A DNA stretch of 64,000 bases from assembly GCA_964430735.1 (NCBI GenBank), contig CAYSFB010000005.1, positions 46,390 to 110,389 of the forward strand, in the 5' to 3' direction. The DNA comes from an uncultured Planctomycetia bacterium (GTDB lineage: Bacteria > Omnitrophota > Gorgyraeia > 2-02-FULL-51-18 > JAGOUK01). The position numbers were made by a program, and so were the translations under genes. Shown piece by piece: positions 7,561 to 61,669 of the stretch. Each line of letters opens with the position of its first letter. Position 1 is the first letter of the stretch. The notes below the pieces were generated by a model. That model was not told where the DNA came from. It saw nothing but the letters and a program-made list of their open reading frames with translations, and did no database searches.

Positions 7561-9100
7561 ATGACCCTTCAACGACCTGGATTCAAACTCCTCGTGAAGA
7601 TCGTCGCCTCGGTGACGGTGGTTACCTTTTTCTTTCAGGATGTTGTCATGGCTACCGGCGGCACACCGGTTTGGAAGACGACGCCCGTCGCGCTGTCTGC
7701 GGGTGAGCGCGGGGCCGGCAAGCAGGTCCCCGAGGTCTCGGCCTCGCTGGGGGTGAAGCGCAGCGAGCATCTTGACGGCGAGGCCGACGAACTCATCGTC
7801 AACATCCAGGACGCCCACTCCTCGATCGGCGCGCAGAAGGCCGCATCCAAAATTTTTGCCGAGCTCGTCAGCCAGTACGACCTCGACGTCATCGGCGTCG
7901 AAGGATCCTCGGGCGCGATCGACACGAGCCTCGTTTCCGCCTTCCCGGTCAAAAAAGTCCGCGAATCGGTCGCAGAGTCGCTGCTGCTCAACACCCGTAT
8001 CGGCGGGGCTGAATTTTTCCAAATGATCTCCCAGGACGACGTCGAGCTCGTCGGCGTCGAGGACCCGGAGCTCTATCAGAGCAACATCCGCGTCTACCAG
8101 CGCCTCATCGCCGATGAGCCGCGCATCCGCAAGGCGCTCTCCGCGCTCAAAGAAATCCTCACCGCTCTTGAGCAGTCGATTTATTCCCAGGAGCTGCGCG
8201 ACTTCCGCCGCCAGCGCCTTCTCCACGAGTCGGGCGACCTCAAATTCACCGAGTACTGGCATTTTCTCAAAGCGCTGGTCGTGCGTTCCGGTCTTTTGAC
8301 CTCCGGACGGCCCAACCTCGAGAAGCTGATCCGCACTGCGGAGCTCGAGGATGAGATCGACTTCAAGTCCGCCACCCGTCAGCGCGACCTGCTCGTGAAA
8401 GAGCTCAAAACCAAGCTCTCCGGAGACGATCTTGCCAGCCTCGTCAAAGAAGCGGTCCGGTTCAAGCTTGGCAAAATCACTCCCGGCCGTTTCCACGCCT
8501 CTCTCGTCGAGCGCGCCCGCGACGCCGGCGTCGACCCGGTCGCCTACAAGGACTTCATTCTGTATGCCGAGTACGCGGTTCTCTACGAATCCATCGACTT
8601 TCTCCGCGTCTTTGAAGAAATCGCCGAGCTCGAGACGCGCGTCGAGGGGTCGCTGCTTCGCAAGACCGACGAACGCCGCCTCGCCTCGCTCGGCCGCACC
8701 GTCGACATCCTCGCGAAGCTGCTCGAAGTCAAGCTCACGAGCTCGGACGAAGCCTTTTTTCTGAACAACCGCGCGATGTTCGAGCCGGCGGCCCTGCAAG
8801 CCGCCGTCGAGGAGCTCGCTGACGAGCGCGGCATCGATGCCTCCAGAATCCATTGGAGGCTCCTGGCATCCGAAATCCCCGCCGCCGAAAAGTTCTACCG
8901 CCTCGCCAAAGAGCGCAACGACGCGATGCTGACGAATCTGACGAAGCGCATGCGCGAAAAGGGCAAGACGGTCGCCGCGCTCGTGACCGGCGGTTTTCAC
9001 ACCGAGGGGCTCTCCCGCCTCATGCAGGAACGCCGCGTCTCCCACGTCGTTTACATGCCCAAGTTCGATCCCAAAGACGGCGAGCGTCCCTACATCACCG
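7561..9100 (+). other. Conserved N-terminal module shared by the three complete giant proteins (family unknown, possibly Tiki/TraB/GumN-like).
   Basis: It aligns block by block with the N-termini of the ORFs at 38719 and 47149: IQDAHSSIGAQ / IQDAHTNESGQ / IQDAHTNASGQ; VIGVEGSSG / HVFTEGADND / HVFLEAGSGDD; LVGVEDPELYQ / LIGVEDEELYD / LWGVEDPALYA; and LVTGGFHTEGLSRLMQERRVSHVVYMP / LVTGGYHTPSLKRMLKDKGISYVSIMP / LVAGGYHAPNLKRLLRESGVSYVSILP. Confidence 0.6.
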
Positions 9101-47136: not shown

Positions 47137-47148
47137 AAAGAACCCGGC

Positions 47149-50100
47149 ATGAGCGTCCTCAGGACCCGAACCCCCATCCGGATTCGCGCGATTGCGGCTT
47201 TGGCTGCGGCGGCCTTCCTGCTGCAGGACGTCGCGTTCGCCATGCCCGAGCTGGCGGCGCGCGCGGGAGTGCCGCACGTGCCCGCTTCGGCGGCGATGAT
47301 CGAAGACCGTTTTGACGCCGGACATTCCGGCGGCAAGACGGTTTTTTTGATCCAGGACGCTCACACCAACGCTTCAGGCCAGCGGCATATCGCCCGCACG
47401 CTCGAAGCGCTTCACAATCAGACCGGATTCACGCACGTTTTTCTCGAGGCGGGGTCGGGGGATGATTCCATCGGCTTTCTGCGTCCGCTGGCCGGATCGG
47501 CAGATCGCCGGAACGTGGCTGAGCCCTACCTTAACAAGGGCCTTTTGCAGGGGGCCGAGTACTTTGAGCTGGTCACCGACCGGCCCGTCAAGCTCTGGGG
47601 CGTCGAAGATCCGGCGTTGTACGCCCAAGCGCTCGCCGCCTATAGGACAGTTGCCCTCGGGCGTTCGGTGCACGAGGCGCGTATCGGCCGCCTGGATACG
47701 GCGGTGGAAGTGCTCAAACATAAGATTTACAATCCCGCGCTGCTCGAACTGGACCGGATCCTTTTGTCCGACGTGCGGGAGTCCAAGCCCTTCACCGAGC
47801 TTCTCGCGGAGCTGGATCCCTTCCTGAAGCGCGCCTCGCTCGGGTGGGGCGAATTTCCTGAGCTTGCGGCGGTGCACCGGGCGCTGGCGATGGAGCGGAA
47901 GATCGACTTTGACCTTGTCCGCCTCGAGGAAGCGGAGGCGATTCACCGTTTGCCGGAAGCCGACCGCGCCGCAATCGAAGCCGTGCGGTCATCGGCCGGA
48001 CGCATCGCCGGATCCAACCTTGCCGTCCAAGCCTCGCACGCGGCGCTTCTCAAGGAAGCGCTCGCCGCCGCGCCCGGCCCGGCCCGTTCCGTCCCCGCCG
48101 AGCTCCGGAAGTATTTTGAGTACATCGAAGCGACGCAGGCCATTCGGACCGAGCGTGCGGTTCGGGAGCAGGAGCGGCTTACGCAGGCGCTCATCAGCCG
48201 GCTGACGCGTACCCGTGAAGAAGCCGGTCTGGTGCGCGCGGCGTCCGCGCTGGAGGCGTTCCGCGGACTCGGGGCGCTCGAGCTCACTCCGGACCGTTAC
48301 AAGTCGGAATCTGCGAATCCTTATTTTGCGGACGTCGCACGGTTCGAGGGATTTTTAAACGGTCAATGGATGCGGCTGGGGACGGGGTATGAAAAAGTCG
48401 TTTTTTTGGATCCCGCCTTTGAAGACTGGATCGCCGAAGCGAAGCGCTTCTATGATCTGACGCTCGCCCGGGACCGGCAAATGATCCGTGAGGCGTTGTT
48501 GCGCATGGACGAAGCCGGCGAACGGAAGGCCGTCCTTGTGGCCGGCGGATACCACGCGCCCAACCTCAAGCGCCTCCTCCGTGAATCGGGCGTATCCTAC
48601 GTCTCCATCCTTCCTCAGATCACGCATCCGACCGACAAGGCGCGTTATGAGCGCCTGCTCCTGGCCCAAACGCCCGGCCGGCCTGCTGGCTCAGCCCGCG
48701 CCATGAGTCTCAAGCCCTCGCGCGAAGCGAATCCCGCTCTGCTGGAGCAAATCGCGCGCGACCTGGCCTCGCGGCCCGGCGCCAGTCCCGAAGCCCTGCG
48801 GGCCGTGTTGTCCGAGCTTTCCGGCGGCGCGCGGCTGGCCGCATCATCGCAAAGCGTCCGGACGGGAGTAGAGGCGTTTGCCGACTCGATCGTCGACAAG
48901 CTTCGGCGCGACCCGTTGTTTGATTTTGCGGACTTTAGCAGCGAGGCGCAGACGCTTTTCGGCAGCCGCACCGACAGGATTCCCGCGCTCGAGATACTCG
49001 CCCAAAGAATCAACCGCACACTGATGGAAGACCGTTCTCTCATGCCGTTCGAAAAAGCCCGGTTGTATCAGTTCCTTGCCGATCTCTCATTAAATGACCG
49101 GGAGCAGTCAGAGTCAGTGTTCGGCACGGACATTTTTTACGGCGCCTACAAGCGCATGATGGGAACGCGCCGCTATCTGATCGAGCGCAACCGGCAGCTC
49201 CTCGCCGCTTTTCGTTCAGTCATGCTCCCTGTTTTGGAAAAAGTGAAGCGTCCGTCCGGTCCCGTCTACTCGGGCAACAAAGTGACGGCGGAGGTTTCTG
49301 CCCGTTTCGACGCGCTGCACCATGGCGTCGGCAAGGATCTTTTTGTCTACGCGTCGGTTCCCGACGAAAAGTCGGTGCTTAACTTCACCGTCGATCCCGA
49401 CGCCGGCCCGGCCTTCAGGATCGTGGTCCGCCCCTCCGAACGGCGCGGGGTATCGGTCGCGAATTTTCGCTATCAGCATCCGGACCAAAAAGACGCCGCG
49501 CCTGATGTGACGCGTCTCGAGGCTGATGACGCAGATGGAATCAGGGAACTCAAGTCCGATCCTCAGTTCAATCACGTGATGGCCGCCCTGAGCGCTGCCG
49601 GCCTGACCTCCCATCGCGCCGGCGAAGAACAGGTTCTCAGCAGCATCAAGTCGATTTACGGCATGAGTCCCTGGGAAGGCATCGAGATCGAGATTCACAG
49701 CCGGCTCCCCGTGTCGAGCGCACTGGGCGGCGGCACAGGCATGACGTCGGCTCTGATCGCCGCGTTGCTCGAGTACACGGGACGCGGGAAAGCGGTCTCC
49801 AAGGCGGAACTTGCGCTTCTGGGTTCGTATGCGGAGATGCTGTTGGCGGTGGATGATCCTTCGAGCCCGATGGGAGGATGGCAGGATGCCTTGGGGGCGC
49901 TGCTAACATACCTCAATTGGATCACGATCGGTTCGGATCGGCCGTTTACCGAACTTCATGAACAAGCGATCTTCGAAGGAGAAGTCCAAATCCGCCGCGA
50001 GCAGCAACTGATGTCCAGCCTTCTTGCCCGCTCCGTGCCGATCCTTCTGCCTTCGGCCGAAGGGACTGGATCCCAGGATGTTTTGGAAGAACTTGTGAGC

Positions 50101-53100
50101 CTCCATTTGCGCGGCTCCCGACGGTCCCGGGAAGCTGCGGCCGCGGGCCGGGTCCGTATGGAACAAGCCTGGGATTTGATCAGCCGATATCGGTCGGGCG
50201 ACCTAACACTGGAATCTGCCACGGACGGACTGATCCGCCTCATGACCGAAGAGGCCGAAGCCTTCGGGTCGCTCGTCCTTGGTGTGAGACATGAAGGGTT
50301 TGACCGGCTTCTTTCTGAGCTGACTTCCGCACGCGACTTGAAGAATCCGGACGGTACCCCTCTTGTTTCCGGAGGCAAGATCGGAGGAGCCGGAAGCCGC
50401 GGTGTTGCGCTCGTGTTTTTGGCGGCGGGAAATGACCGGGAGTTGAGCGTGCGCCGCCGGCGTGTCCTTGATGCGGCGGAACGCGCCGGAATGAGCAGCT
50501 TCCCGCTGCGGGCCGGCGACGGTCTGCGGCTGAAGTCAGCGCCGGTCCGACGGACCCAAGGCGCCAGACTCACATCGGCCGTCTCGCTGCGCGGCCTTGC
50601 TCCGGAAGTGGAGCTGGAGGTGTTGAAGCACCATCGCGACGAACTCAAAAAGGAGCGCTTCGCTCCGGGAACCGGCAACTTCACCCGCGTGTACCTGTTC
50701 TCCGATATTCACGGGTCGATCGGGAAGATGGATGATTTTATTCTCAAGGCCTTGAAGGACGCGTTTCCGGAAGCGTTTGGAAGTATCGCGCGTTTGGATC
50801 CTTCCATATCGCTTCAGGAGCAGCTGGCGGAACCGGTGCGCCAGGTGGGCGGTTGGAATGTCATTCGGGAAAAAGTCGCCTTCTTAAACGGCGGCGATCT
50901 CATGGACCGCCAGGATATCAATAAGGGCGAGTCGGGGCTGGCCGTTTATGAGCGTACGATCCAGCTGCAGGAGCTCGGGCTTCAGGAATTCACGACCGGC
51001 AATCATGATCACCTGGTCATCATGCCCCTCATGGGACTTCATCTGCCGACATACGAGGGTTATCGCTTTTATTTGGACATGACCGAAGCCGGCAAGGCGG
51101 CCCAGCGGGCACTCGAGCACGAGATTTATCGTGACCCCGCCCGGCCTGATTCCAAGCTGAAGCTGAGGCCCGTCGAAGACGTGGTGCGTGAGCGGAATCG
51201 CGGGTTTGCGAGCGACCGCGACCGCACCGAATTCTGGAGCCAAAAATTCTCGGACTATTACACTGAACGGATCGACCCCGCGTCTCCGCTCGTACGGGAA
51301 TGGAAGCAGATCGGTTCAGAGGTGTTGGGCGATCCGGCCTCCGGCAGCGCGCCGCTCATGTCCAAAGACCAGATCAAGGGGTTGAGCGGCCTTCAGAAGG
51401 TTTTTTGGAACAAGTTCACAGGCAAGAACATGGAAGACGTCGACATCTACACCGGCATCCGGACGATCAAGGTCGGCGACCAGGAAGTCTGTTCCACGGG
51501 CCTTATGTCCGCGATGTGGTGGCGCGAGCTCCGGACCAACTTCCAGCAGCAGCTGGACAAGCCGCTGGATGCAAAAGACGCGATCCGCGATCTCTCGATC
51601 CGGGCTTCGTGGGAAAAGGCCATCCGCTACATGGACCGGATCCTGGAGGGTCTCGAAGCCGACCTCCGCAAGCGCCGCAGCGAGGGGCAATGGTGGGTCC
51701 GGGCGATCGAAGCGTTGTATAACCAAAATTATTACACGGCCGAGCAGGCCGCCTGGGACTGGGTCGTCCACCTCGGCTGGGGCCCGGCGTTGTTCGAAGA
51801 AATCAACCGCCTGATCCGCGCGGGAAAAATCCCCGGACCCGAGATCGACCGGTCCAACTTCCTGCTCAATTCCAAAATCCAGGAAATGAGCCGCAGGATG
51901 CAGGAAATGTTCGCGCTGTATTCGCGCAACCGGTATATGACGTTCCTCCACGCGACCCTCCCCATGGACCGGGCGACTGACAGCGCTCCCGGCGATTCCG
52001 CGCCCATCCTTCCGGGCCAGTTCCGGTTCAGGTACGACGGCGTGACCTATGTCGGCGCCGGGCACGAAGCGAGCGGCAGTCCGTCGGTGTGGGAGGGGAT
52101 GGACCGGCTCGAACGGGCGGTCCGCGAAGCCGACCCGGTTCATATGTCCGATGCGGCAACGGCCTTCAACGCGATTTATGACTGGTATTCGGACTTTAAG
52201 ACCCGCGCCAAGCCGCGGGATGTGCTGGAATTGGTTAACGATGACATCGCTTTCACGAACTTTTTCAACCTCAACGGAATTTACGGGTTTTTGGGGACGG
52301 GCCACAACCCGTTGCCGACCGGTTTTGCCAAATATGTGCGCGAAATGCTCCGACGCTTCGCCGGCGTTCTGACTCAGGCGTTCGGTCCGCGCTTCCGGGA
52401 CTACTGGCTCCAACTTGACGCCGGAGTATCCCTCAAGTTCGGCAACCAGGGGCTCATGATCGCGATTCATCCCGCTGACATTGCCGGCGGCCTGCGCATC
52501 TTCGGTTACACCAAGCCGGACGCGAAAGAATTGACCGAGAACCCCGCCATTTATTACGAAAAAACCTACAAGAACTACAAAGAGCAAAAAAAATCAGATG
52601 CCGAAACACCCGAGCCGAACCCCGCCTTTACGACCGAGCCGGTCGGACACGAGGACTTCCTGCTCGGCCACCTCGGCATCGTCGAGGATCGGATCCGCGT
52701 ACTCGAGAGCCGTCTCAGGTCCCAAGTCGAAGCCGACGGCCCCGGCGGCGCCCGTTTGGCAGAGAACCTCCCGGAATACAAGCGGACGATTTCCCGTCAG
52801 CTCACGGGTGCGATGGGCCAATTGTCCAAACTTGCGCAAGAGCTCGAGAACGTCAAAGCCGAGATCGCCCGCATGAGAGGGTACGAGCCGGATCCGGACG
52901 GACCTGAAGCTCCGGAGGAACCCGGGATGAACAGGGCGATCATCGATTACTTCCTGGGCGGCGATCTCGCGTCCCGGACCGACCGGTTGCAGGATTTTGC
53001 GGATCGGATCGAGTATGTGCGTGAACAGATCTCGGCCGCGAGTATGCCGCTTTTGCTGGACCATCCGAGCCGTGAGGACCTGCTCGGTGCTCTTGCCGAC

Positions 53101-56100
53101 CTTTCGAGCGCATGGAAGACGCTGGCGGACCTTCAGAACTCGCTTGCGGACCGGCAGGCTAGTCTCATGCCCGTTCATCATCCGATTAAATACGCCAGTT
53201 CGAACCTCCGCGTTTCGATCCTCGCAATCATCAGGCATTATTCCGAGCTCGAGCCGGCCGTCGAAGACTTTGTTTATTACCGCGATGTCATGCGGCTGAT
53301 CCGGAAGGGGTCCGGGAATGTCGTCCGGTCCATGAACCTCGCCGAGCGCGCGGGGGATTGGCCCTGGAGCCGGTTCGAATCGGACGAGGAGTTTGAAGCG
53401 TTTTGCGAACAATTCGAAATCCGGTGGGTCACCCTCACAGGCTCTCCCCATCCGTTCGATGCTGTGATTCAGCCGGCGCCGTCCGGCAACGGCATGACCG
53501 ACGCGGTCGATGAATTGTTCTCGATGCAGGGTGAATTCGAGATCGCGATGCGCGAAATGCCGGAATTCAAGGATCAGCCGGTTGCTTCGGATATAGAGTC
53601 CGATCTCCGGCAGATGAGAGAGTGGATCGAGCTCAAGGAGGCCGTCCGGCCCCTTCAGCACCAGCTGAACGCGAAGATGGCCGCCTACTACATCGAGAAG
53701 TCGATGGACTTGATCGATTCCAAGGGTGCCGTCCGCGCTGGAATTTTTAATGTGCTGACGTCGGATCCGCGGTTCGCTGCGGGCGATCGGGACTTCATCC
53801 ATGATGAGCTGCTGTTCGCGCCGGACTCGATCGACGGCAGGAACCTGACGGATTCTGATCTGACGCGCCGTGTTTTGTCCCATCCCGCCCTGGCGTCGGT
53901 AGACCCCCTCCGGGCCAAGGTCGTCTGGCACCTGTTCAAGGCGTGGACTGCCTGGGTTGGCGTCCGCGGTCCCCGGGGAGAGCTGGTCGCGCAGGGCTTC
54001 TGGGACGAGATCGTGGCCCTGGACCGTGTGGATACGATCGCTTCAGTTCCGTGGCTGGCGGTTTACGAAGAACGGATCGCTTGGGCCATCCGGGAGGTGT
54101 CCGGGAACCCCGCCCTGTTTTTGGGGCCTTTGACGGATTCGGAGTACCCATCCGTTGAGGGGCGGGCGGCCGCTGCGATGGATTTGGCGGATCTTCTGAC
54201 GGCGGAGCCGACGTCCGAATCCGAGGGCGAGGGCATGCTCGTGCGCGCGAAGCGGGCGGTCCGGATGCTCCACAGCGCTTTTGGCGCCCGCCTGGCGGCG
54301 GACCGTGTGCGGCCCGGGCAAAGTGAACAGCGTCTGAATCCCGCTCCCAGAGAGTTCCGGATGGCACGCAAGCTTCTCAAGCTCGTCCAAAATTCCGATT
54401 TGGAGGGCATGGATAAATATGTCAAAACCCAGGCGCTCCTGGCGGCGCTTTATGGCGGAGAGGCGATCATCTGGCACAGGAACAAGCAAACAGGGAAATG
54501 GCAGCGCAATATTTTCCGTTTTTCCAACGGACTGTTGTACACGCTTCCGTTTTCGGCCATGGAGACGGTCCGGTCCATGCGTGCCGGTGAAGATGTCCGG
54601 GGCAGCCTCCTGGAGCTTTTAGCGCCCCGCGACCGCGACCGGAACATCTACAACCACTGGAAAGGTTTGGCGGAGCCTGTTCCTGCGGAGGCAGGAGGAT
54701 GGACCGGCAAAGCGACAGAGCAGAATTTGACCGAGTTGATCCTCGAGATTTCGGAGGAGGCGGCAAAATACGGGATCCGTCCGGAGCATTTTGCGACATT
54801 GGCGGTTGATCCGGACTTTCAGAATCCGTTTTTGCACACCTTTATCGGGATTCCCGCTGAATCGCATGTGTTCGAGCAGGGCGCGAGCCGCCTTGAGATG
54901 GCTGCAACAGTCATGCGCCTGTCGCCCGAAGATCGAAGCAAGTTCGTGCGTCTCGAGAACCATTTTGAGCCCGAAATCCTGATTGAGGTGGCTGACGTTC
55001 CGAAGAATGTGACGGTGATCCGCGACCGTCATCAGGTGGGCGATCCCAAGCCCGGCAAAGGCGGCATCCGGTTTATTTCGGCGGGACAGCTCAGTCGGGA
55101 CCGGGACTTCATGGAGCGCTTCGAGAAGCTCAAAGCCTCCGGGTTTAATCTGGATGAACTGCGGTTTTTCCTGCGCAAATGGGTCCGGGAAGAAGTGCGC
55201 GCGCTCGCGATCGGCATGTCGGTCAAAAATGCCGTTGCGGATCTGCCGTTTTCCGGCGCCAAGGGCACGGTTCTGTTTGCGGATGTCGAGCAGTCGCCCA
55301 AGAAGGGTCCCGTGATCCAGGACCTCTTCGCCGGCATGAACGCCTCGGAAGACGGCGGAGTGAGCCCTGCTCAGCGCTACAAGGCCAGCGTGTTGCGCCG
55401 ATTTGTAGACGCCATGTATGACGCGGGGGTTTTGGGTCCTGATGACGATGTGCCGGCTCCCGACCTGGGATCGACTTCCGCCGACATGGATATCATGACC
55501 GATGCGCTTCTGCGCAGATACCTGGGCTTGGGTATCCGCCAGCCTTATGCAGAGACCGTCCATGTTTTGGCCGGGTTGCGTTCCTCCGGCCACTATCCCG
55601 CCGAGCTGCTCGACCGCATCGAAGAAATGGTCCGGAGTCACCGCTCGAATATGGACGCGCTGATGGTTCGTCCGGTTCTGCTCGAAATTGTTGCCGGATA
55701 CCTTAAAGAGGCGATGGCGGCAGGAGTCAAAATCAAGCCGGGAACTCCATTCGGGAACCTGGCGCGCCTGCCGGCGACTTTTACCGCCAAGTCCGAAGCC
55801 AACCTGGGTTCCGGTTATCGCAGCCGTGCCACGGGCGAGGGTGTTCAGGAGATCGCCAAGACGTTTTATATCGAAGATCATCCGGAGAAGTCCGATTCCG
55901 CATCCCCGATGGACGGTGTGACCGTCAAGATCGAAGGAGCCGGAGCAGTCGGGCTTGAGGCCGCGATCGCGGCGGTCCGGGATGGCGCCAAAGTCATCTC
56001 CATGAAGGAAGCCACCGGCACGGCCTTCAAGTCCCGGGGTTTTACCATAGAAGATTTGGAAAAAATGCGGCGAGTACTCCAGCGCAATCAGGACGGCTCT

Positions 56101-59100
56101 GCGGTCCATCCCGAAGGTTTTGCCCTGCTCGACGCCAAGACGGCAGCCGCATCGGAGTTTACGATCGACGGCGCATTCGTCCTTGCGGGGAGCGACGCGC
56201 AGGACGCGTTTTTGACCGAGCCGGCCGTTTTCTTCTACGCCTGCGCGATGGAAAATTCCATCAACGGAACCAATGTCCATGCCCTGAACGCCGACTATAT
56301 TGTCGAGGGGGCGAATGGCGCCATTACGAATGAGGCTTATTGGCACTTGATTGAGCAGGGGCGCACGGTATTGCCGGATTCCCTGGCGAATGCCGGCGGC
56401 GTGACCGGCTCCACGTGGGAGTGGCAGGCCAATCGTGACTTGGTGAGGCATACTGCCGCCAGCGAACGGAAGATGACGCTCGGCCAACTTACTGCCGCGG
56501 CGCTTCGGCTTCGGAAGATCCAAAACCGCTGGATCAACTCGGCCGGAGATCCGCTGGATCTGCGCACGGCGACCATGATCGTGCTGTTGGAGCGCGGATT
56601 CAAAGGAGGTCCGGCCGCAGCCCGTCTCGCGTCCCAGTCCATCCGGACATTCGAACGCGAGGTCGCGTTGGTTAGGGACGGGGTCAAGGCGAATTTGGTG
56701 ATGCAGTTCGCGGTTCCCGACCGCAAAGACCTCGTTCGGCGCGCATCGTTGTCCATCGAGGTCGTACAGGATCCTGGCAGCACCCCGGCGCCGGCGATGC
56801 TTCAGCTGCCGATAGCGGAGCGGCCGGCGATTCTTTTGAGCCGCATCGAAGACTATATTCACGAGTTGTCGCAGTCCCGGGAGCTCTTGGATGATATCGG
56901 CGGCCTGCAGCGTGAAGTGGCCCTCAAGTTCAGCCGGATCGTCACGGCGGATACGATGCGGGATGAGATGCAATTGCTGAATTCCGCCGAGGCAAAAGCG
57001 GCCCGGGCAACGGATGATGAGGATATCAGGTCGGTGATCCGGATCCTTCAAAGCGCCAAGCGCCGGTTCAACGACCCTGAGGACGAAAAATTCCACGGCA
57101 ATTATACGGGGTACATCAACGAAGTCCGCAGGGCCCTGGATCTTCTGGAGCCGATGGGATTCAATCCGCACGGGCCCTTCGGGTCGGATCTGGGAACAGC
57201 CGACGACCCGCTTGAGACGCTCGGCCGCGCCGTTGTGCAGTTTTTGCAAATTGCCGAAGGCGGGGATGCATCCGATGGAGCGCGCCTGGCGATTTGGGAT
57301 CGTTGGTTCGGCGGCGAACGCAATTCCGGCAACCGTCCTTCCAGTCAGAGCGTGATCGAACACAATCTGCAGGCGATCGAGCGTCTCGTCCAGACTGCGG
57401 TCATACCCTCGTTTGACCGGCAGATGAAGCGGCTTTATTGGCGCGGCGAGACTCATCTGATCCCTCTTTCCGCCCCGGCCTTTGAAGGGATCGTCGACGG
57501 TCCGGAAGCCTCCTTCCAGATCCACGCGGTTCATGTCGATGCGGACGGGCGGATTTTGCCTTCCGGTGAAGTCGAAGGATCCGTGCGCACCATCCTCGAT
57601 TTGACCGATCACATGCGTTTACGGGCGCGGTCCAAGAGTCCAAACTTCCTCGCGACGATCCATCAATTCAACCGGTCCGGCTCCAAACCCCTCTACGAGC
57701 GCCTGCGGGTGATGCGTCAGGATTTCCTGCAATCCCGGCGGGGCCGGGAGGTCCGTGATTTGGAAATGACGCGGGGTTCCGGGTGGCTCTTGGGCGAACG
57801 CGCGGCGGTGATCCTCGAAAAGCTGCAGGATGGAGCCGTCCGTATCGGAGTTTATACGGACTCCCGGATGCCCGTTCGGCCGGCCGGATCTGTCGACGAA
57901 GACTCGGATGCGCCGGCCGTCGAATGGGATGCGCACATCCCATTTAACCAAGTCCGCAAAACGGATTTGCGCTCGTACGAATTTGTATGGAAGCGGGCTA
58001 ACGGTTCGGTTCAGTCGGATCCCGAGGCGATCTACCTGAACGACGGGGATGTGCGGTTATGGATCAAGTCCGTCGATCCCGGTCTTGGCGGAATCACTCT
58101 TTCCTATCAGGCGCCGGTGCGATTACGCCAGCGCCGCATTTCTCAGACCGACATCCCGTCCAAGTCCGGCTCGCGGCTGGCCAAGGCCGGGCAATACCGT
58201 GCCCGATATCTGTTTGAGCCGGCGGCTGTCAAACAAGTCCAATCGCCGGTCACAGAACAGAGTCTTTCCCCGACCCGTCCATCCGGCCGATATGAGCGCC
58301 ATCGGTTGCGATCAGCACAGATTCCGAGCGCCCTTCGGACGGTGATCGAAAACGGAGATTTGGAGCGCTTTGGCTCCGGGGTGTTCGCCGCGCAGCCGGC
58401 GGCGTTTGAATCGGATACCGACTTTGCGATGTTGTTGGACGAAAAGGATCCGGTGATCATCCGGGCGTCCTATGATTCTTCGGCGGACATCCTGAGTCTA
58501 TGGGCCTTGACCTCCGATGAAAACCCGATCCTGCTGCACCAAATCCGGAATCCGCGCAGGGCTTTTGTGGAGGATGCCCGCCGATCTGCCGCCGTCAGTC
58601 TGTCGATGTCGGATGTTCAAATGACCATCGAGGCGTTGCATGCGAGCCTTGACGCCCTGATGCCCGTCAGCCGGTCCGAAGATGCGGCCGCGCCCGCCAA
58701 GGTTCGCAACCGCATTCTAGAATACACGCTCGATTCGTGGTTCGACCCCGAGCATCCGGAAGACTTCGATGTCGTGGTGCCGCTGCTGGTGCAGGAAGCG
58801 TTGAGCGCCCGCCGGGCGCTCGAGAATCAGGTCGCCTTCACTCTCAAGGGCCGGGAAGATCTGGCAGTCCGTGTCCTGGCCGCGGCGTCCGCCGCAGGGG
58901 CCGGGGATCTCTTTTATTCCTCCGAGGAGGATCTCAAGCGCCGTCTGCCCGGATTCGATTCGGATGATGTCGTCACGGTCCGGGTCCAAAGTTCGGATGA
59001 TCCCAGGCCGGCCGCTCCTGTAAACGGGGAAGCGGCGGATGTGCGCACCATTGCGGTCCAGCCCTTGCGTCGGTCCCAAGACAACCGGATCGGTGTGCCG

Positions 59101-59361
59101 GCCATCAAGCTGGTGACGCGATTGGCGATTTTTCTCGCGGATGCCGAGAAGACGCCGGAATTCAGAGACCGGCTGCGGCGCATTATCCGCCTTTCGACCG
59201 GTCAGGATGCCTCTGACGCCGAAATCGACGCGCTCATCGACGGCACGGCTTCCGCCGAGCTTCTCAAAAAACTCTCGGTCCGCCCGATTCTGACGGTCCC
59301 GATTTCCGCCTACCTTCGCGTCATGCAAATGACTGCCCGCATGGCCGAAGCCTCCGCCTGA
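47149..59361 (+). CDS. Giant (4,070 aa) signal-anchored multidomain protein: conserved N-terminal module, GHMP-kinase-like domain, metallophosphoesterase, and large NAD-glutamate-dehydrogenase-like region.
   Basis: An uninterrupted 12.2-kb frame starts 12 nt after the upstream stop. The N-terminus MSVLRTRTPIRIRAIAALAAAAFLLQDVAFAMP is a signal anchor. The homologous N-terminal module runs to about 48700. Confidence 0.85.
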   Translation: MSVLRTRTPIRIRAIAALAAAAFLLQDVAFAMPELAARAGVPHVPASAAMIEDRFDAGHSGGKTVFLIQDAHTNASGQRHIARTLEALHNQTGFTHVFLEAGSGDDSIGFLRPLAGSADRRNVAEPYLNKGLLQGAEYFELVTDRPVKLWGVEDPALYAQALAAYRTVALGRSVHEARIGRLDTAVEVLKHKIYNPALLELDRILLSDVRESKPFTELLAELDPFLKRASLGWGEFPELAAVHRALAMERKIDFDLVRLEEAEAIHRLPEADRAAIEAVRSSAGRIAGSNLAVQASHAALLKEALAAAPGPARSVPAELRKYFEYIEATQAIRTERAVREQERLTQALISRLTRTREEAGLVRAASALEAFRGLGALELTPDRYKSESANPYFADVARFEGFLNGQWMRLGTGYEKVVFLDPAFEDWIAEAKRFYDLTLARDRQMIREALLRMDEAGERKAVLVAGGYHAPNLKRLLRESGVSYVSILPQITHPTDKARYERLLLAQTPGRPAGSARAMSLKPSREANPALLEQIARDLASRPGASPEALRAVLSELSGGARLAASSQSVRTGVEAFADSIVDKLRRDPLFDFADFSSEAQTLFGSRTDRIPALEILAQRINRTLMEDRSLMPFEKARLYQFLADLSLNDREQSESVFGTDIFYGAYKRMMGTRRYLIERNRQLLAAFRSVMLPVLEKVKRPSGPVYSGNKVTAEVSARFDALHHGVGKDLFVYASVPDEKSVLNFTVDPDAGPAFRIVVRPSERRGVSVANFRYQHPDQKDAAPDVTRLEADDADGIRELKSDPQFNHVMAALSAAGLTSHRAGEEQVLSSIKSIYGMSPWEGIEIEIHSRLPVSSALGGGTGMTSALIAALLEYTGRGKAVSKAELALLGSYAEMLLAVDDPSSPMGGWQDALGALLTYLNWITIGSDRPFTELHEQAIFEGEVQIRREQQLMSSLLARSVPILLPSAEGTGSQDVLEELVSLHLRGSRRSREAAAAGRVRMEQAWDLISRYRSGDLTLESATDGLIRLMTEEAEAFGSLVLGVRHEGFDRLLSELTSARDLKNPDGTPLVSGGKIGGAGSRGVALVFLAAGNDRELSVRRRRVLDAAERAGMSSFPLRAGDGLRLKSAPVRRTQGARLTSAVSLRGLAPEVELEVLKHHRDELKKERFAPGTGNFTRVYLFSDIHGSIGKMDDFILKALKDAFPEAFGSIARLDPSISLQEQLAEPVRQVGGWNVIREKVAFLNGGDLMDRQDINKGESGLAVYERTIQLQELGLQEFTTGNHDHLVIMPLMGLHLPTYEGYRFYLDMTEAGKAAQRALEHEIYRDPARPDSKLKLRPVEDVVRERNRGFASDRDRTEFWSQKFSDYYTERIDPASPLVREWKQIGSEVLGDPASGSAPLMSKDQIKGLSGLQKVFWNKFTGKNMEDVDIYTGIRTIKVGDQEVCSTGLMSAMWWRELRTNFQQQLDKPLDAKDAIRDLSIRASWEKAIRYMDRILEGLEADLRKRRSEGQWWVRAIEALYNQNYYTAEQAAWDWVVHLGWGPALFEEINRLIRAGKIPGPEIDRSNFLLNSKIQEMSRRMQEMFALYSRNRYMTFLHATLPMDRATDSAPGDSAPILPGQFRFRYDGVTYVGAGHEASGSPSVWEGMDRLERAVREADPVHMSDAATAFNAIYDWYSDFKTRAKPRDVLELVNDDIAFTNFFNLNGIYGFLGTGHNPLPTGFAKYVREMLRRFAGVLTQAFGPRFRDYWLQLDAGVSLKFGNQGLMIAIHPADIAGGLRIFGYTKPDAKELTENPAIYYEKTYKNYKEQKKSDAETPEPNPAFTTEPVGHEDFLLGHLGIVEDRIRVLESRLRSQVEADGPGGARLAENLPEYKRTISRQLTGAMGQLSKLAQELENVKAEIARMRGYEPDPDGPEAPEEPGMNRAIIDYFLGGDLASRTDRLQDFADRIEYVREQISAASMPLLLDHPSREDLLGALADLSSAWKTLADLQNSLADRQASLMPVHHPIKYASSNLRVSILAIIRHYSELEPAVEDFVYYRDVMRLIRKGSGNVVRSMNLAERAGDWPWSRFESDEEFEAFCEQFEIRWVTLTGSPHPFDAVIQPAPSGNGMTDAVDELFSMQGEFEIAMREMPEFKDQPVASDIESDLRQMREWIELKEAVRPLQHQLNAKMAAYYIEKSMDLIDSKGAVRAGIFNVLTSDPRFAAGDRDFIHDELLFAPDSIDGRNLTDSDLTRRVLSHPALASVDPLRAKVVWHLFKAWTAWVGVRGPRGELVAQGFWDEIVALDRVDTIASVPWLAVYEERIAWAIREVSGNPALFLGPLTDSEYPSVEGRAAAAMDLADLLTAEPTSESEGEGMLVRAKRAVRMLHSAFGARLAADRVRPGQSEQRLNPAPREFRMARKLLKLVQNSDLEGMDKYVKTQALLAALYGGEAIIWHRNKQTGKWQRNIFRFSNGLLYTLPFSAMETVRSMRAGEDVRGSLLELLAPRDRDRNIYNHWKGLAEPVPAEAGGWTGKATEQNLTELILEISEEAAKYGIRPEHFATLAVDPDFQNPFLHTFIGIPAESHVFEQGASRLEMAATVMRLSPEDRSKFVRLENHFEPEILIEVADVPKNVTVIRDRHQVGDPKPGKGGIRFISAGQLSRDRDFMERFEKLKASGFNLDELRFFLRKWVREEVRALAIGMSVKNAVADLPFSGAKGTVLFADVEQSPKKGPVIQDLFAGMNASEDGGVSPAQRYKASVLRRFVDAMYDAGVLGPDDDVPAPDLGSTSADMDIMTDALLRRYLGLGIRQPYAETVHVLAGLRSSGHYPAELLDRIEEMVRSHRSNMDALMVRPVLLEIVAGYLKEAMAAGVKIKPGTPFGNLARLPATFTAKSEANLGSGYRSRATGEGVQEIAKTFYIEDHPEKSDSASPMDGVTVKIEGAGAVGLEAAIAAVRDGAKVISMKEATGTAFKSRGFTIEDLEKMRRVLQRNQDGSAVHPEGFALLDAKTAAASEFTIDGAFVLAGSDAQDAFLTEPAVFFYACAMENSINGTNVHALNADYIVEGANGAITNEAYWHLIEQGRTVLPDSLANAGGVTGSTWEWQANRDLVRHTAASERKMTLGQLTAAALRLRKIQNRWINSAGDPLDLRTATMIVLLERGFKGGPAAARLASQSIRTFEREVALVRDGVKANLVMQFAVPDRKDLVRRASLSIEVVQDPGSTPAPAMLQLPIAERPAILLSRIEDYIHELSQSRELLDDIGGLQREVALKFSRIVTADTMRDEMQLLNSAEAKAARATDDEDIRSVIRILQSAKRRFNDPEDEKFHGNYTGYINEVRRALDLLEPMGFNPHGPFGSDLGTADDPLETLGRAVVQFLQIAEGGDASDGARLAIWDRWFGGERNSGNRPSSQSVIEHNLQAIERLVQTAVIPSFDRQMKRLYWRGETHLIPLSAPAFEGIVDGPEASFQIHAVHVDADGRILPSGEVEGSVRTILDLTDHMRLRARSKSPNFLATIHQFNRSGSKPLYERLRVMRQDFLQSRRGREVRDLEMTRGSGWLLGERAAVILEKLQDGAVRIGVYTDSRMPVRPAGSVDEDSDAPAVEWDAHIPFNQVRKTDLRSYEFVWKRANGSVQSDPEAIYLNDGDVRLWIKSVDPGLGGITLSYQAPVRLRQRRISQTDIPSKSGSRLAKAGQYRARYLFEPAAVKQVQSPVTEQSLSPTRPSGRYERHRLRSAQIPSALRTVIENGDLERFGSGVFAAQPAAFESDTDFAMLLDEKDPVIIRASYDSSADILSLWALTSDENPILLHQIRNPRRAFVEDARRSAAVSLSMSDVQMTIEALHASLDALMPVSRSEDAAAPAKVRNRILEYTLDSWFDPEHPEDFDVVVPLLVQEALSARRALENQVAFTLKGREDLAVRVLAAASAAGAGDLFYSSEEDLKRRLPGFDSDDVVTVRVQSSDDPRPAAPVNGEAADVRTIAVQPLRRSQDNRIGVPAIKLVTRLAIFLADAEKTPEFRDRLRRIIRLSTGQDASDAEIDALIDGTASAELLKKLSVRPILTVPISAYLRVMQMTARMAEASA
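49380..50540 (+). other. GHMP-family (sugar/small-molecule) kinase-like domain.
   Basis: IEIEIHSRLPVSSALGGGTGMTSALIAALL is comparable to GHMP motif II, P-x-[GSA]-x-G-L-G-S-S-A-A. The C-terminal PLVSGGKIGGAGSRGVALVFL is comparable to GHMP motif III, G-A-K-x-x-G-A-G-G-G-G. Confidence 0.45.
50680..51500 (+). other. Calcineurin-like metallophosphoesterase domain.
   Basis: RVYLFSDIHGS (D-x-H), NGGDLMDRQ (G-D-x-x-D-R) and TTGNHDHLV (G-N-H-[DE]) appear in the canonical order. Confidence 0.5.
53000..59361 (+). other. Large NAD-specific glutamate-dehydrogenase-like (Bac_GDH / L_180-class) region. The catalytic core lies at about 55000-56460.
   Basis: KPGKGGIRFISAGQLSRDRDFMERFE...MSVKNAVADLPFSGAKGTVLF is comparable to large-GDH [42 protein letters not shown]. 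The Rossmann motif IEGAGAVGLEAAIAA is present. IVEGANGAITNEAYWHL...LANAGGVTGSTWEWQAN is comparable to GDH EGAN.PTT.EA......PD...NAGGV..SYFEW.QN. Confidence 0.55.
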
Positions 59362-61665: not shown

Positions 61666-61669
61666 CGCC

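What the first reader, a model, noticed from the sequence alone, without database searches (positions are those of the whole stretch)
49380..59361. Cytoplasmic-type metabolic enzymes (GHMP kinase, metallophosphatase, large NAD-GDH) appended to a signal-anchored giant protein
The 4.1k protein carries GHMP kinase motifs II and III, a complete D-x-H / G-D-x-x-D-R / G-N-H-D metallophosphoesterase set, and then roughly 2,000 residues matching the large bacterial NAD-glutamate dehydrogenase family. The GDH match includes the K-G-G-I-R-F / S-V-K-N-A-V / G-A-K-G box, a G-A-G-A-V-G Rossmann motif and E-G-A-N...N-A-G-G-V. Large GDHs are about 1,600-aa cytoplasmic enzymes. A copy fused behind a secretion/anchor head and behind kinase and phosphatase modules is unusual. 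It may have been co-opted as a scaffold or for an extracytoplasmic or compartmental role.
Basis: partly seen in the sequence, partly recalled or inferred. Interest (0 to 1): 0.65.

Follow-up and report, generated by a model that had tools for sequence, protein, structure and literature searches.

The report
Exported multi-enzyme giant protein, Omnitrophota
This 4,070-residue bacterial protein has an export signal followed by a string of separate enzymes (a GHMP-type kinase, a metallophosphatase, an ordinary-sized glutamate dehydrogenase and others), joined by a repeated five-residue 'separator' that looks like a cutting site and could show how the giant proteins of Omnitrophota bacteria are processed.

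Summary
The ORF (47149-59361, 4,070 aa) is real and the three enzyme modules are real. The glutamate dehydrogenase, however, is the small hexameric ELFV type, about 580 aa of core plus a 190-aa extension. It is not a ~2,000-residue large NAD-GDH. All of its catalytic and substrate residues are conserved.

The window comes from an Omnitrophota genome and holds four giant genes in tandem. Preprints from 2023 and 2026 already describe cytoplasmic-type enzymes in exported Omnitrophota giants, so the fusion itself is a new member of a known kind.

What looks unreported is the organisation:
- a cleavable-looking Sec signal peptide;
- a conserved ~530-aa head, weakly similar to the Tiki/ChaN/erythromycin-esterase superfamily;
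- autonomous modules separated by a strict pentapeptide, G-A-R-L-A (7 in G3 against about 0.3 expected by chance);
- a conserved tail.

Orthologous GDH and phosphatase modules in other lineages sit between different pentapeptides (R-S-E-x-R, A-S-S-L-G) at the same distances from module landmarks. That points to a reader that evolves with each lineage.

Best reading (about 0.5): an exported polyprotein cut at the separators. Cleavage, location and enzyme activity are all inferred, not shown.

The parts
47149..59361 (+). G3: giant ORF of 4,070 aa (stop codon included)
   Evidence: The identical protein is on record on two Logan contigs of SRR14271373.
47149..47241 (+). Predicted Sec signal peptide, aa 1-31: four Arg in the n-region, h-region A14-L25, then A-F-A|M
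   Evidence: Hydropathy scan. Read directly from the sequence. The [AS]-x-A pattern recurs in relatives. No signal-peptide predictor was available.
47242..48825 (+). Conserved head, aa 32-559; invariant Q69, H72, E100, G151, E153, Y158, F434, Y435, R441, G466, G467, H469, P489
   Evidence: Shared with G1 and G2, with 78 loci that are mostly Omnitrophota MAGs, and with the giants found through the GDH module. AlphaFold pLDDT 83.7. Only sub-threshold Pfam and Foldseek hits to the Tiki/ChaN/Ere superfamily.
48826..48840 (+). Separator 1: GARLA (aa 560-564)
48841..50559 (+). Module S2, aa 565-1137: GHMP-kinase-like
   Evidence: Pfam GHMP_kinases_N, 32.6 bits. Motifs II and III read directly. A homologue follows a head in L015.
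50560..50574 (+). Separator 2: GARLT (aa 1138-1142)
50575..52746 (+). Module S3, aa 1143-1866: calcineurin-like metallophosphoesterase, about 720 aa, with a weak class-III FBPase likeness
   Evidence: DxH, GDxxDR and GNHD are invariant in A6. Metallophos is hit by 13 of 14 family members and FBPase_2 by 7 of 14. PDB 4j6o at 4e-4.
52747..52761 (+). Separator 3: GARLA (aa 1867-1871)
52762..54282 (+). Module S4, aa 1872-2378: unknown function
   Evidence: No Pfam hit. No relatives among the fetched sequences.
54283..54297 (+). Separator 4: GARLA (aa 2379-2383)
54298..56616 (+). Module S5, aa 2384-3156: glutamate dehydrogenase module. It has an N-extension (aa 2384-~2570, with the LYGG and NPFLHTF motifs), then an ELFV core (aa ~2570-3150) with a helical insert. 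Catalytic Lys K2705 lies at nt 55261.
   Evidence: Pfam ELFV_dehydrog_N and ELFV_dehydrog. Catalytic residues conserved. AlphaFold pLDDT 86.6. Foldseek match to 1v9l at E 7.7e-24.
56617..56631 (+). Separator 5: AARLA (aa 3157-3161)
56632..57276 (+). Module S6, aa 3162-3376: unknown function
   Evidence: No Pfam hit
57277..57291 (+). Separator 6: GARLA (aa 3377-3381)
57292..58167 (+). Module S7, aa 3382-3673: unknown function
   Evidence: No Pfam hit
58168..58182 (+). Separator 7: GSRLA (aa 3674-3678)
58183..59358 (+). Tail module S8, aa 3679-4070. It ends ...TARMA-EASA, a degenerate separator-like element followed by a short stub.
   Evidence: Tail homologues in L012 and L015. Tail alignment; every giant ends in -SA or -AA.
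38719..47136 (+). G2: sister giant of 2,805 aa with the same head, 6 separators and the same kind of tail. It carries guanylate-kinase-like and GT5/phosphorylase-like modules.
7561..38484 (+). G1: sister giant of 10,307 aa with the same head and 8-9 separators. It carries NUDIX, glycogen-synthase-like (GT5+GT1) and guanylate kinase modules, each lying between consecutive separators, plus internal hydrophobic clusters.
3..4493 (+). C-terminal end of a fourth giant. The frame is open to the window start. It has GARLA at aa 1252 of the listed ORF and ends ...GARMT-SASA.

Best explanation
G3 is one of four tandem giant proteins of an Omnitrophota bacterium, all built on one plan.

Shown:
- A Sec-type signal peptide comes first.
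- It is followed by a conserved ~530-aa head, an alpha/beta core with a large helical insert.
- Then comes a string of self-contained modules. Each is bounded by the strict pentapeptide G-A-R-L-[A/T/S].
- A conserved tail closes the protein.
- In G3 the modules are: a GHMP-kinase-like unit; a ~720-aa calcineurin-type metallophosphoesterase; an unknown unit; a glutamate dehydrogenase of the ordinary hexameric ELFV type with an intact active site; and three further unknown units.

Inferred:
- The chain is exported unfolded through Sec.
- The pentapeptides are recognition sites for a protease that co-evolves with each lineage. This may be the head itself or a trans-acting enzyme.
- The giant would therefore act as a polyprotein. 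It would release individual enzymes, or leave them nicked but associated, in the periplasm, on the cell surface, or at the contact zone with a host or prey cell.
- Cofactors (ATP, NAD(P)) and substrates would come from host-derived material. The products would be taken up, for example by the sugar ABC transporter encoded directly downstream.
For: Architecture:
- G1, G2 and G3 share the head. So do 78 loci, mostly Omnitrophota MAGs, and the giants that hold the closest GDH modules.

The separators are not chance:
- [GA][AS]RL[ATS] occurs 8, 6 and 7 times in G1, G2 and G3. Shuffle means are 0.46, 0.12 and 0.30, and the maxima over 2,000 shuffles are 4, 2 and 3.
- The motif is absent from the ordinary neighbouring proteins.
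- An unbiased 4-mer enrichment picks the separators as the top k-mers in most giants.

Selection acts on the protein:
- Codons at the motif vary synonymously and the flanks are unconserved.

The separators mark module boundaries:
- All seven in G3 lie outside the Pfam envelopes.
- The one at the start of module S5 adjoins a low-pLDDT stretch of the AlphaFold model, and the segments just before separators 1 and 5 also score low.
- In G1 the NUDIX, GT5/GT1 and guanylate kinase modules each lie between consecutive separators.

Lineage-specific readers:
- The orthologous GDH module is flanked by GARLA, RSExR or ASSLG in different lineages. The separator-to-LYGG distance stays at 40-55 aa and the NAGGV-to-separator distance at 69-95 aa.
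- The orthologous phosphatase module is flanked by GARLT, RSEVR, RSELR or ASLG.
- Every giant in this window uses GARLA.

The modules are autonomous:
- The same modules appear in different orders and in different hosts.
- A stand-alone phosphatase homologue with its own signal peptide exists (L083).

Export:
- The n-region carries four Arg, the h-region is 12 residues, and A-x-A is conserved in relatives.
- G3 has no other hydrophobic segment.

The enzymes look active:
- GDH catalytic residues are conserved in G3 and its homologues.
- The metallophosphatase motifs are invariant.

Context in the literature:
- West-Roberts et al. suspected proteolytic processing of Omnitrophota giants but state that the cleavage points are unknown.
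Against: - No cleavage has been observed. No protease domain was identified in G3 or in the window.
- The head's link to the Tiki/ChaN/Ere hydrolases rests only on sub-threshold hits. Two profile searches against PDB sequences found nothing.
- Some separator-bearing, signal-peptide proteins (GLEE type: P0030, P0137) lack the head motifs in the N-terminal region. A cis-acting head protease therefore cannot be general.
- ATP- and NAD(P)-dependent enzymes have no obvious cofactor supply outside the cytoplasm.
- G1 has separator-free stretches of about 2,800 and 3,300 aa, so not everything is cut into enzyme-sized pieces.
- No signal-peptide or topology predictor could be run.
Confidence: 0.5

Rival explanations
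1. Uncleaved 'beads on a string'. The giant is exported and stays in one piece as a surface or periplasmic multi-enzyme coat. The pentapeptides would be docking or hinge motifs bound by a common partner (a chaperone, a scaffold, or a cell-envelope attachment or modification enzyme), not cut sites.
For: [quoted passage not shown]
- No protease was found in cis.
- G1 has long separator-free stretches and internal hydrophobic clusters that would anchor an intact chain.
- A GT-C (Dpy19-like) glycosyltransferase, typically periplasm-facing, is encoded between the giants.
- Lineage-specific motifs fit any co-evolving binding partner equally well.
Against: - A strict five-residue motif in otherwise unconserved linkers, recurring at every module boundary and again a few residues from the C-terminus, is the classic layout of polyprotein sites. 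Hinges do not look like this.
- The motif holds no Ser/Thr/Asn/Trp acceptor for GT-C enzymes in the GARLA lineage.
- The Dpy19-like and TPR genes are not conserved neighbours.
Confidence: 0.3
2. Cytoplasmic multi-enzyme protein. The N-terminal hydrophobic segment is not a functional export signal, or it is a reverse anchor. The enzymes then work in the bacterium's own cytoplasm, where ATP and NAD(P) are available, as a covalently linked metabolic assembly.
For: - Every identified module is a nucleotide- or cofactor-dependent, cytoplasmic-type enzyme.
- West-Roberts et al. themselves caution that the extracellular calls for glycolytic domains may be wrong.
Against: - Four Arg precede the segment and a net acidic flank follows it, which predicts N-in/C-out.
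- The hydrophobic core is 12 residues, too short for a membrane anchor, and ends in a conserved A-x-A.
- A stand-alone phosphatase homologue has its own signal peptide.
- GDH modules also occur in other signal-peptide proteins that have a different N-terminal domain.
- 94% of catalogued Omnitrophota long proteins carry a signal peptide or TM helices.
Confidence: 0.12
3. One reading: a large (~1,600 aa) bacterial NAD-specific GDH, about 2,000 residues in all, has been fused behind kinase and phosphatase modules.
For: The K-G-G-x-R, K-N-A, G-A-K-G, G-x-G-x-x-G and N-A-G-G-V boxes are shared by every member of the ELFV superfamily, large GDHs included.
Against: - No Bac_GDH-type Pfam model hits any segment at E<=10, while ELFV_dehydrog scores 107 bits.
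- The PDB sequence search returns only 400-560-aa GDHs.
- The fold search gives small hexameric GDHs for all of the top 50 matches.
- The stretch is split by three separators into unrelated modules.
Confidence: 0.02
4. Artefact: adjacent ordinary genes were merged into one ORF by assembly or sequencing errors.
For: None specific. The source is a short-read metagenome assembly.
Against: - The reading frame stays open for 12.2 kb.
- The same protein is on record on two contigs.
- The same head-module-tail plan with in-frame separators recurs in dozens of independent assemblies.
- Start codons do not generally follow the separators.
Confidence: 0.02

Closest known systems
Omnitrophota giant proteins: 'Archaeovorins' (West-Roberts et al. 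2023, bioRxiv 10.1101/2023.11.21.568195) and 'multi-enzyme metabolic clusters' (Nielsen & Lui 2026, bioRxiv 10.64898/2026.06.07.730766)
   Same: - Same phylum.
- A signal peptide.
- Many distinct cytoplasmic-type enzyme domains tiled along one polypeptide. GT5, GT1, NUDIX, kinases and FBPase are reported there; GT5, GT1, NUDIX, guanylate kinase and an FBPase-like phosphatase are found here.
- The same open puzzle about location and cleavage.
   Different: - G3 (4,070 aa) and G2 (2,805 aa) are below the size cut-offs of those catalogues (>=10,000 or >=30,000 aa).
- In term searches of those papers, GDH and GHMP kinase did not appear.
- Nor did a shared head, a shared tail or inter-module pentapeptides.
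[quoted passage not shown]
Small hexameric glutamate dehydrogenases (ELFV family; e.g. Pyrobaculum islandicum GDH, PDB 1v9l)
   Same: - Both Pfam domains are present.
- The fold matches, with TM-score (normalised to the target) 0.84-0.86.
- Catalytic Lys and Asp, the Lys/Lys/Ser that bind glutamate, and GxGxxG are all present.
   Different: - It is embedded in a 4,070-aa exported protein.
- It has a ~190-aa N-extension and a ~100-aa helical insert that are shared only with other embedded copies.
- It scores far below the NCBIfam equivalog cut-offs: 91.6 bits against 620.
- Its closest relatives (E<1e-30) are almost all inside proteins of 1,000-5,800 aa.
Large bacterial NAD-GDH (GDH180 / Pfam Bac_GDH)
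   Same: Only the ELFV-superfamily catalytic boxes are shared.
   Different: No match to its catalytic-domain model or to its N- and C-terminal domains. The size and domain order also differ.
MARTX toxins and viral polyproteins (from my own knowledge, not tested here)
   Same: - One very long secreted or translated chain carries several independent enzymatic modules.
- Short recurrent linker sites are cut by a dedicated protease to release the modules. The MARTX cysteine protease domain cuts after Leu in the inter-effector linkers.
   Different: - There are no RTX/glycine-rich repeats, no C80 cysteine protease domain and no type I secretion signature.
- A Sec signal peptide is present instead.
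- The cargo is central-metabolism enzymes, not toxins.
- Cleavage has not been demonstrated.
Tiki / TraB-PrgY / ChaN / erythromycin-esterase superfamily (compared with the head)
   Same: - An alpha/beta core with a helical insert.
- A conserved H...E...E...R...GGxH pattern.
- Repeated weak Pfam hits to Cofac_haem_bdg, DUF5682, DUF5694, TraB_PrgY_gumN and Erythro_esteras, and weak Foldseek hits to EreC and BcR135/136.
   Different: - All hits are below the family thresholds, and two PDB profile searches were empty.
- The helical insert of about 300 aa is far larger.
- Catalytic geometry could not be checked.
Calcineurin-like metallophosphoesterases; Firmicute class III fructose-1,6-bisphosphatase (Pfam FBPase_2)
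   Same: - The DxH, GDxxDR and GNHD motifs plus later conserved His residues.
- A ~650-720-aa size like FBPase_2.
- 13 of 14 family members hit Metallophos and 7 of 14 hit FBPase_2 weakly.
   Different: - The window's own copy falls below detection; it has a 5-residue insertion right after GDxxDR.
- The FBPase_2 hits are weak, best 0.0077.
- The substrate is unknown.

Membership tests
ELFV (Glu/Leu/Phe/Val) dehydrogenase, small hexameric GDH type | Both Pfam domains (ELFV_dehydrog_N, ELFV_dehydrog) score above their gathering cut-offs | tested here: met
   53.6 bits against 25.3, and 107.4 bits against 23.4, on aa 2382-3159
ELFV (Glu/Leu/Phe/Val) dehydrogenase, small hexameric GDH type | Catalytic Lys (K125 equivalent) and Asp (D165 equivalent); glutamate-binding K89, K113 and S380 equivalents; GxGxxG dinucleotide fold | tested here: met
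   K2705, D2772, K2637, K2693, S3088 and G2930/G2932/G2935 are present. They are conserved in nearly all of 17 embedded and 7 stand-alone GDH sequences. The residue equivalences rest on the well-known C. symbiosum motif numbering, taken from my own knowledge.
ELFV (Glu/Leu/Phe/Val) dehydrogenase, small hexameric GDH type | Two-domain GDH fold | tested here: met
   AlphaFold pLDDT 86.6 and pTM 0.88. Foldseek match to 1v9l at E 7.7e-24 with TM-score (target-normalised) 0.84; 6yei at 0.86.
ELFV (Glu/Leu/Phe/Val) dehydrogenase, small hexameric GDH type | Equivalog-level identity with characterised GdhA/GdhB (NCBIfam cut-offs) | tested here: not met
   The best score is 91.6 bits against a cut-off of 620. 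This is a divergent subfamily.
ELFV (Glu/Leu/Phe/Val) dehydrogenase, small hexameric GDH type | Hexamer assembly and NAD(P)-dependent glutamate deamination activity | not testable with these tools
   Needs the expressed module, size-exclusion chromatography and an enzyme assay.
Large bacterial NAD-GDH (Bac_GDH / GDH180) | Match to the Bac_GDH catalytic-domain model and to the flanking ACT-like and helical domains over about 1,600 aa | tested here: not met
   No such Pfam hit on any of the 8 segments at E<=10. No large GDH among the PDB sequence hits at E<=1. The top 50 fold matches are all small GDHs.
GHMP kinase superfamily | GHMP_kinases_N domain with the motif II phosphate-binding loop | tested here: met
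   32.6 bits against 22.3, aa 835-899. PVSSALGGGTGMTSA read directly.
GHMP kinase superfamily | C-terminal domain (GHMP_kinases_C) and motif III | tested here: inconclusive
   A motif III-like GGKIGGAGSRG is present at aa ~1075-1085, but there is no GHMP_kinases_C hit even at E<=10.
GHMP kinase superfamily | Assignment to a substrate-specific subfamily | tested here: not met
   Only weak NCBIfam hits to mevalonate kinase, fucokinase and archaeal shikimate kinase, all far below their cut-offs.
Calcineurin-like metallophosphoesterase | Metal-binding motifs DxH, GDxxDR and GNH[DE], plus downstream His residues | tested here: met
   DIHG at 1186, GDLMDR at 1249, GNHD at 1284. GDxxDR, GNHD, H158 and H401 are invariant or nearly so in 14 homologues, H461 and H579 are nearly invariant, and the DxH motif is kept in all sequences that cover it.
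Calcineurin-like metallophosphoesterase | Profile match (Pfam Metallophos) | tested here: inconclusive
   The window's copy gets no hit. 13 of the 14 A6 sequences (all except the window's own) hit, best E 1.2e-9. The family profile hits PDB 4j6o at 4e-4.
Class III fructose-1,6-bisphosphatase (FBPase_2) | Profile match over the whole ~640-aa enzyme | tested here: inconclusive
   7 of 14 homologues hit weakly, best E 0.0077. The window's copy gets no hit.
Omnitrophota giant multi-enzyme proteins | Omnitrophota origin | tested here: met
   The head's relatives are nearly all in Omnitrophota MAGs. The window's own taxonomy is inferred from this.
Omnitrophota giant multi-enzyme proteins | Signal peptide or TM helices together with many distinct enzyme domains on one chain | tested here: met
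Omnitrophota giant multi-enzyme proteins | Length of at least 10,000 aa (Nielsen & Lui catalogue) or at least 30,000 aa (West-Roberts) | tested here: not met
   G3 is 4,070 aa and G2 is 2,805 aa. Only G1 (10,307 aa) passes 10,000.
Tiki/TraB/ChaN/erythromycin-esterase superfamily (head) | Significant profile or fold match with the conserved His/Glu/Arg/GxxH residues | tested here: inconclusive
   Sub-threshold Pfam hits: Cofac_haem_bdg in 8 of 19 members (best 9.6e-5), plus DUF5682, DUF5694, TraB_PrgY_gumN and Erythro_esteras. Foldseek match to EreC with probability 0.54 at E 0.24. PDB profile searches were empty.
Proteolytically processed polyprotein | A recurrent short site at every module boundary | tested here: met
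Proteolytically processed polyprotein | An identified processing protease and observed cleavage products | not testable with these tools
   No protease domain was found. Proteomics is needed.

The most novel reading that the evidence does not exclude
Omnitrophota giants of this family are Sec-exported bacterial polyproteins. A pentapeptide that co-evolves with each lineage (GARLA, RSExR, ASSLG, GLEE) would be the cleavage site at every module boundary and just before the C-terminus. A dedicated protease, possibly the conserved Tiki-like head, would read it and release dozens of metabolic enzymes outside the cell. The separators would then give a ready-made cleavage map for proteins whose processing is an acknowledged open question.
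Probability: 0.3. Interest if true: 0.85.

Novelty: new variant of a known kind. Interest (0 to 1): 0.6.

Why it matters
Omnitrophota giant proteins, up to 147,000 aa, are among the largest proteins known, and how they work is unknown. The authors who described them state that missing cleavage points stopped them from dissecting the proteins.

A strict, lineage-specific pentapeptide at the module boundaries turns 'are they cleaved, and where?' into a direct test. Existing or new proteomes can be searched for neo-termini at GARLA, RSExR or ASSLG. The same motif gives a principled way to cut any such giant into units for structure prediction and expression.

The analysis also corrects the enzymology. 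The GDH is an ordinary-sized enzyme with an intact active site. It belongs to a distinct clade found almost only inside exported multi-module proteins, which raises the question of what NAD(P)- and ATP-dependent enzymes do outside the cytoplasm of a host-dependent nanobacterium.

Tried and rejected
1. The search for homologous proteins was run with the head, with module S3, and with an S3 alignment. All three returned nothing, although relatives exist. The word-index step is evidently saturated by these sequences, so these results are not evidence of absence.
2. Large-GDH reading: rejected.
3. Sequence-profile searches of the head against PDB, both whole and with the helical insert removed, gave only coiled-coil and EF-hand noise.
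S3 could not be modelled with a useful alignment, so its fold rests on motifs and family-level profile hits.
6. The separator as a DNA-level signal (recombination or RNA processing): rejected, because its codons vary synonymously.
7. The separator as a signal-peptidase-I A-x-A site: considered and dropped. The -3 position is small in only about 40% of GARLA sites.
8. The neighbouring TPR and Dpy19-like GT-C genes as conserved partners: they were not found next to giants in 91 other loci.
9. A blastp search for G3's tail and for modules S2, S4, S6 and S7 among 150 GDH-containing proteins found nothing. The tail is only loosely alignable.
10. Whether the genome also has a stand-alone GDH could not be checked. 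Only an 85.8-kb contig is on record, and none is present in the window.

Full report
**What is at the coordinates.** The finding lies inside one uninterrupted ORF, 47149..59361 (+), of 4,070 aa. Upstream on the same strand lie a 2,805-aa ORF (G2, 38719..47136) and a 10,307-aa ORF (G1, 7561..38484). The reading frame at the window start (3..4493) is the C-terminal end of a fourth giant. The exact G3 protein is on record on two Logan contigs of run SRR14271373, the longer being 85.8 kb.

**The enzyme modules.** Pfam on the whole protein and on eight segments gives three families:
- GHMP_kinases_N at aa 835-899, 32.6 bits against a cut-off of 22.3;
- ELFV_dehydrog_N, 53.6 bits;
- ELFV_dehydrog, 107.4 bits.

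GHMP motifs II and III can be read directly.

This copy gets no Pfam or PDB sequence hit on its own. I therefore collected homologues from an Omnitrophota MAG and from 13 metagenome contigs.
- In the 14-sequence alignment, GDxxDR, GNHD and several downstream His residues are invariant or nearly so, and DxH is kept in every sequence that covers it.
- 13 of the 14 sequences (all except the window's own) hit Pfam Metallophos, best E 1.2e-9. Seven hit the class III FBPase model weakly.
- The family profile finds the metallophosphoesterase 4j6o at 4e-4.

**The GDH is not a large GDH.**
- No Bac_GDH-type model matches any segment even at E<=10.
- A phmmer search of all PDB sequences returns only GDHs of 400-560 aa, led by 1v9l at 7e-19.
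- NCBIfam hits are to GdhA/GdhB-type models, far below the equivalog cut-offs.
- An AlphaFold model of aa 2382-3159 (pLDDT 86.6, pTM 0.88) superposes on small hexameric GDHs. The match to 1v9l has E 7.7e-24 and target-normalised TM-score 0.84, and 6yei reaches 0.86. All of the top 50 matches are of this type.
- The residues equivalent to K89, G90, G91, K113, K125, D165, S380 and GxGxxG are all present: K2637, G2638, G2639, K2693, K2705, D2772, S3088 and G2930xG2932xxG2935. They are conserved in nearly all embedded homologues.

The module is therefore an ordinary-sized GDH with an intact active site, plus a ~190-aa N-extension and a helical insert. Residues 3162-4070 have no GDH similarity. The '2,000 residues of large NAD-GDH' claim is refuted, and a mere scaffold role is unlikely.

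**Where the GDH module's relatives live.** An exhaustive phmmer search of 1.84 billion representative proteins found G3 itself and 15 hits below 1e-30. Of the top 30 hits, 25 are longer than 900 aa, up to 5,841 aa. Ordinary ~420-aa GDHs appear only around 1e-20 and mainly through the NAD domain. This is a distinct GDH clade found almost only inside very large proteins.

**The family plan: head, modules, tail.**
- G1, G2 and G3 share their first ~510-560 residues.
- A scan of one genome per species found 78 loci that encode this head. Nearly all are Omnitrophota MAGs; a few are labelled Planctomycetia or Elusimicrobia.
- The giants recovered through the GDH module have the same head.
- The head starts with a segment that looks like a signal peptide: four Arg, a 12-residue hydrophobic core, then A-F-A|M. 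The [AS]-x-A pattern is conserved in relatives.
- G3 has no other hydrophobic segment.
- The head model (pLDDT 83.7) is an alpha/beta core with a ~300-aa helical insert.
- Its invariant residues are Q69, H72, E100, E153, R441 and G466-G467-x-H469.
- Repeated sub-threshold Pfam hits go to Cofac_haem_bdg/ChaN, DUF5682, DUF5694, TraB_PrgY_gumN and Erythro_esteras. Weak Foldseek hits go to EreC and BcR135/136. Together these point to the Tiki/ChaN/erythromycin-esterase hydrolase superfamily.
- Nothing reaches significance, and the PDB profile searches were empty.
- All giants end in a loosely conserved tail that finishes in -SA or -AA.

**The separators.** While reading G3 I noticed G-A-R-L-A recurring.
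- The pattern [GA][AS]RL[ATS] occurs 7 times in G3, 6 in G2 and 8 in G1. Shuffle means are 0.30, 0.12 and 0.46, and no shuffle out of 2,000 exceeds 3, 2 or 4.
- It occurs once in the fragment of the fourth giant and not at all in the ordinary neighbouring proteins.
- Across 99 sites in the window and its close relatives, the five residues are almost fixed, the flanks are unconserved and the codons vary synonymously. Selection therefore acts on the peptide.
- In G3 the sites fall at aa 560, 1138, 1867, 2379, 3157, 3377 and 3674. All lie outside the Pfam envelopes. The stretch just after the site at aa 2379 and the segments just before those at aa 560 and 3157 are modelled with low pLDDT.
- In G1 the NUDIX, GT5+GT1 and guanylate kinase modules each lie between consecutive sites.
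- An unbiased 4-mer enrichment recovers the same kind of element as the top k-mer in most other giants, but with lineage-specific sequences: RSESR, RSEVR, RAEVR, RSEMR, ASSLG and GLEE. Observed counts are 5-13 against shuffle means below 0.3.

The key result concerns orthologous modules.
- The orthologous GDH module is bounded by whichever separator its lineage uses, at conserved distances. The separator lies 40-55 aa before the LYGG landmark, and the next one lies 69-95 aa after NAGGV.
- The orthologous phosphatase module is likewise bounded by GARLT, RSEVR, RSELR or ASLG.
- A degenerate copy of the separator also sits 4-10 residues from the C-terminus: GARMT-SASA, TARMA-EASA, GARLS-YQTVQISA and RSELR-IKTSA.

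**How it most likely works.**
- Shown: the modular plan; the non-random, protein-level, boundary-marking, lineage-specific separators; the intact active-site residues.
- Inferred: dozens of sites in several genes of one genome have changed in concert while the modules stayed orthologous. That calls for a trans-acting reader that co-evolves with the motif.
- The simplest reader is a protease. That makes these giants Sec-exported polyproteins that release enzyme-sized units (confidence about 0.5).

Several observations fit this.
- Modules are shuffled between proteins.
- One phosphatase homologue is a stand-alone protein with its own signal peptide.
- GDH modules also occur in other signal-peptide proteins that have a different N-terminal domain.

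The head may be the protease. However, GLEE-type proteins lack its motifs in the N-terminal region, so a trans-acting enzyme is at least as likely.

The main rival is an uncut surface coat in which the motif is a docking site (0.3). A cytoplasmic location (0.12) would solve the cofactor problem but goes against the topology signals.

**Comparison with what is known.**
- Giant ORFs are common in Omnitrophota and poorly understood (PMC10066038).
- West-Roberts et al. list GT5, GT1, NUDIX, FBPase and glycolytic domains in predicted extracellular parts of 'Archaeovorins'. They suspect proteolytic processing and state that the cleavage points are unknown.
- Nielsen & Lui define 'multi-enzyme metabolic clusters' that carry a signal peptide and TM helices.

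Term searches inside those papers and in the library found no mention of GDH modules, the shared head or tail, or inter-module motifs. On that basis I rate the finding a new variant of a known kind.

MARTX toxins and viral polyproteins are the nearest mechanistic analogues. That comparison comes from my own knowledge, and none of their defining domains are present here.

**Limits.**
- No cleavage, export or enzyme activity was observed.
- S3 could not be modelled.
- The rest of the genome is not available, so the presence of a stand-alone GDH is unknown.

Noticed in passing
window 3-4493 (+): The ORF listed as 27..4493 (1,488 aa, no Pfam hit) is open to the window start. It carries one GARLA and ends ...GARMTSASA, so it is the C-terminal end of a fourth giant protein that begins upstream of the window.
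   Followed up: partly
window 4548-7291 (+): A TPR protein (270 aa) and a 644-aa protein with a Dpy19-like hit (GT-C glycosyltransferase, E 1.2e-8) lie between two giants. They could modify exported proteins. However, no homologues were found beside giants in 91 other loci.
   Followed up: partly
window 7561-38484 (+), G1 aa 780-6900 and aa 7210-8040: G1 has two separator-free stretches of about 2,800 and 3,300 aa. There are no Pfam hits in its first ~7,500 aa. Clusters of hydrophobic segments lie at aa ~948, 3873, 7210-7300 and 7956-8040, so parts of it may be membrane-embedded, unlike G3.
   Followed up: no
window 59426-62515 (+); L026 20095-21336; L033 20577-21257: A sugar-type ABC transporter (solute-binding protein plus two permeases) follows G3 directly. 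Homologues of its binding protein (52-54% identity) also lie downstream of head-bearing giants in two other loci. This hints at uptake of products made by the giants.
   Followed up: partly
L083 about 2470-4790 (+): A stand-alone homologue (~770 aa) of the S3 metallophosphatase module has its own N-terminal signal peptide (MHKFRPLLILAALSTLAAPLAPLAAE...). So this enzyme type also exists as an independent exported protein.
   Followed up: no
P0019, P0020, P0021, P0025, P0029, P0037, P0044, P0095 (one search hits): A second architecture was seen: a signal peptide, then a different conserved N-terminal domain (LPAPGT...P.L.GL.VH..NP..FDFI.D), then a GDH-like module, in proteins of 1,000-3,700 aa.
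   Followed up: no
P0014 aa ~680-1215 and ~1330-1870: This 5,292-aa giant carries two GDH modules in tandem, each bounded by ASSLG-type separators. By eye the second copy has PSTEKG where the catalytic-Asp motif PAPDxG should be.
   Followed up: no
P0030, P0137 (one search hits): These signal-peptide proteins use another enriched element, (A/S)GLEE (7 observed against 0.13 expected in P0137). Neither has the head's first motif, and P0137's only GGYH lies at aa 1144, far from the N-terminus. The punctuation principle may therefore extend beyond the head-bearing family.
   Followed up: no
P0005 aa 1-1000: In another GARLA-lineage giant the S3-like phosphatase module is followed directly by GARLA and then the GDH module, without G3's intervening S4. 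The phosphatase and GDH modules therefore recur as neighbours.
   Followed up: no
window 47137-47148: G3's ATG lies only 12 nt after G2's stop codon (TAAAAAGAACCCGGCATG), with no obvious Shine-Dalgarno sequence. G1 and G2 are 234 nt apart. The giants are probably co-transcribed.
   Followed up: no
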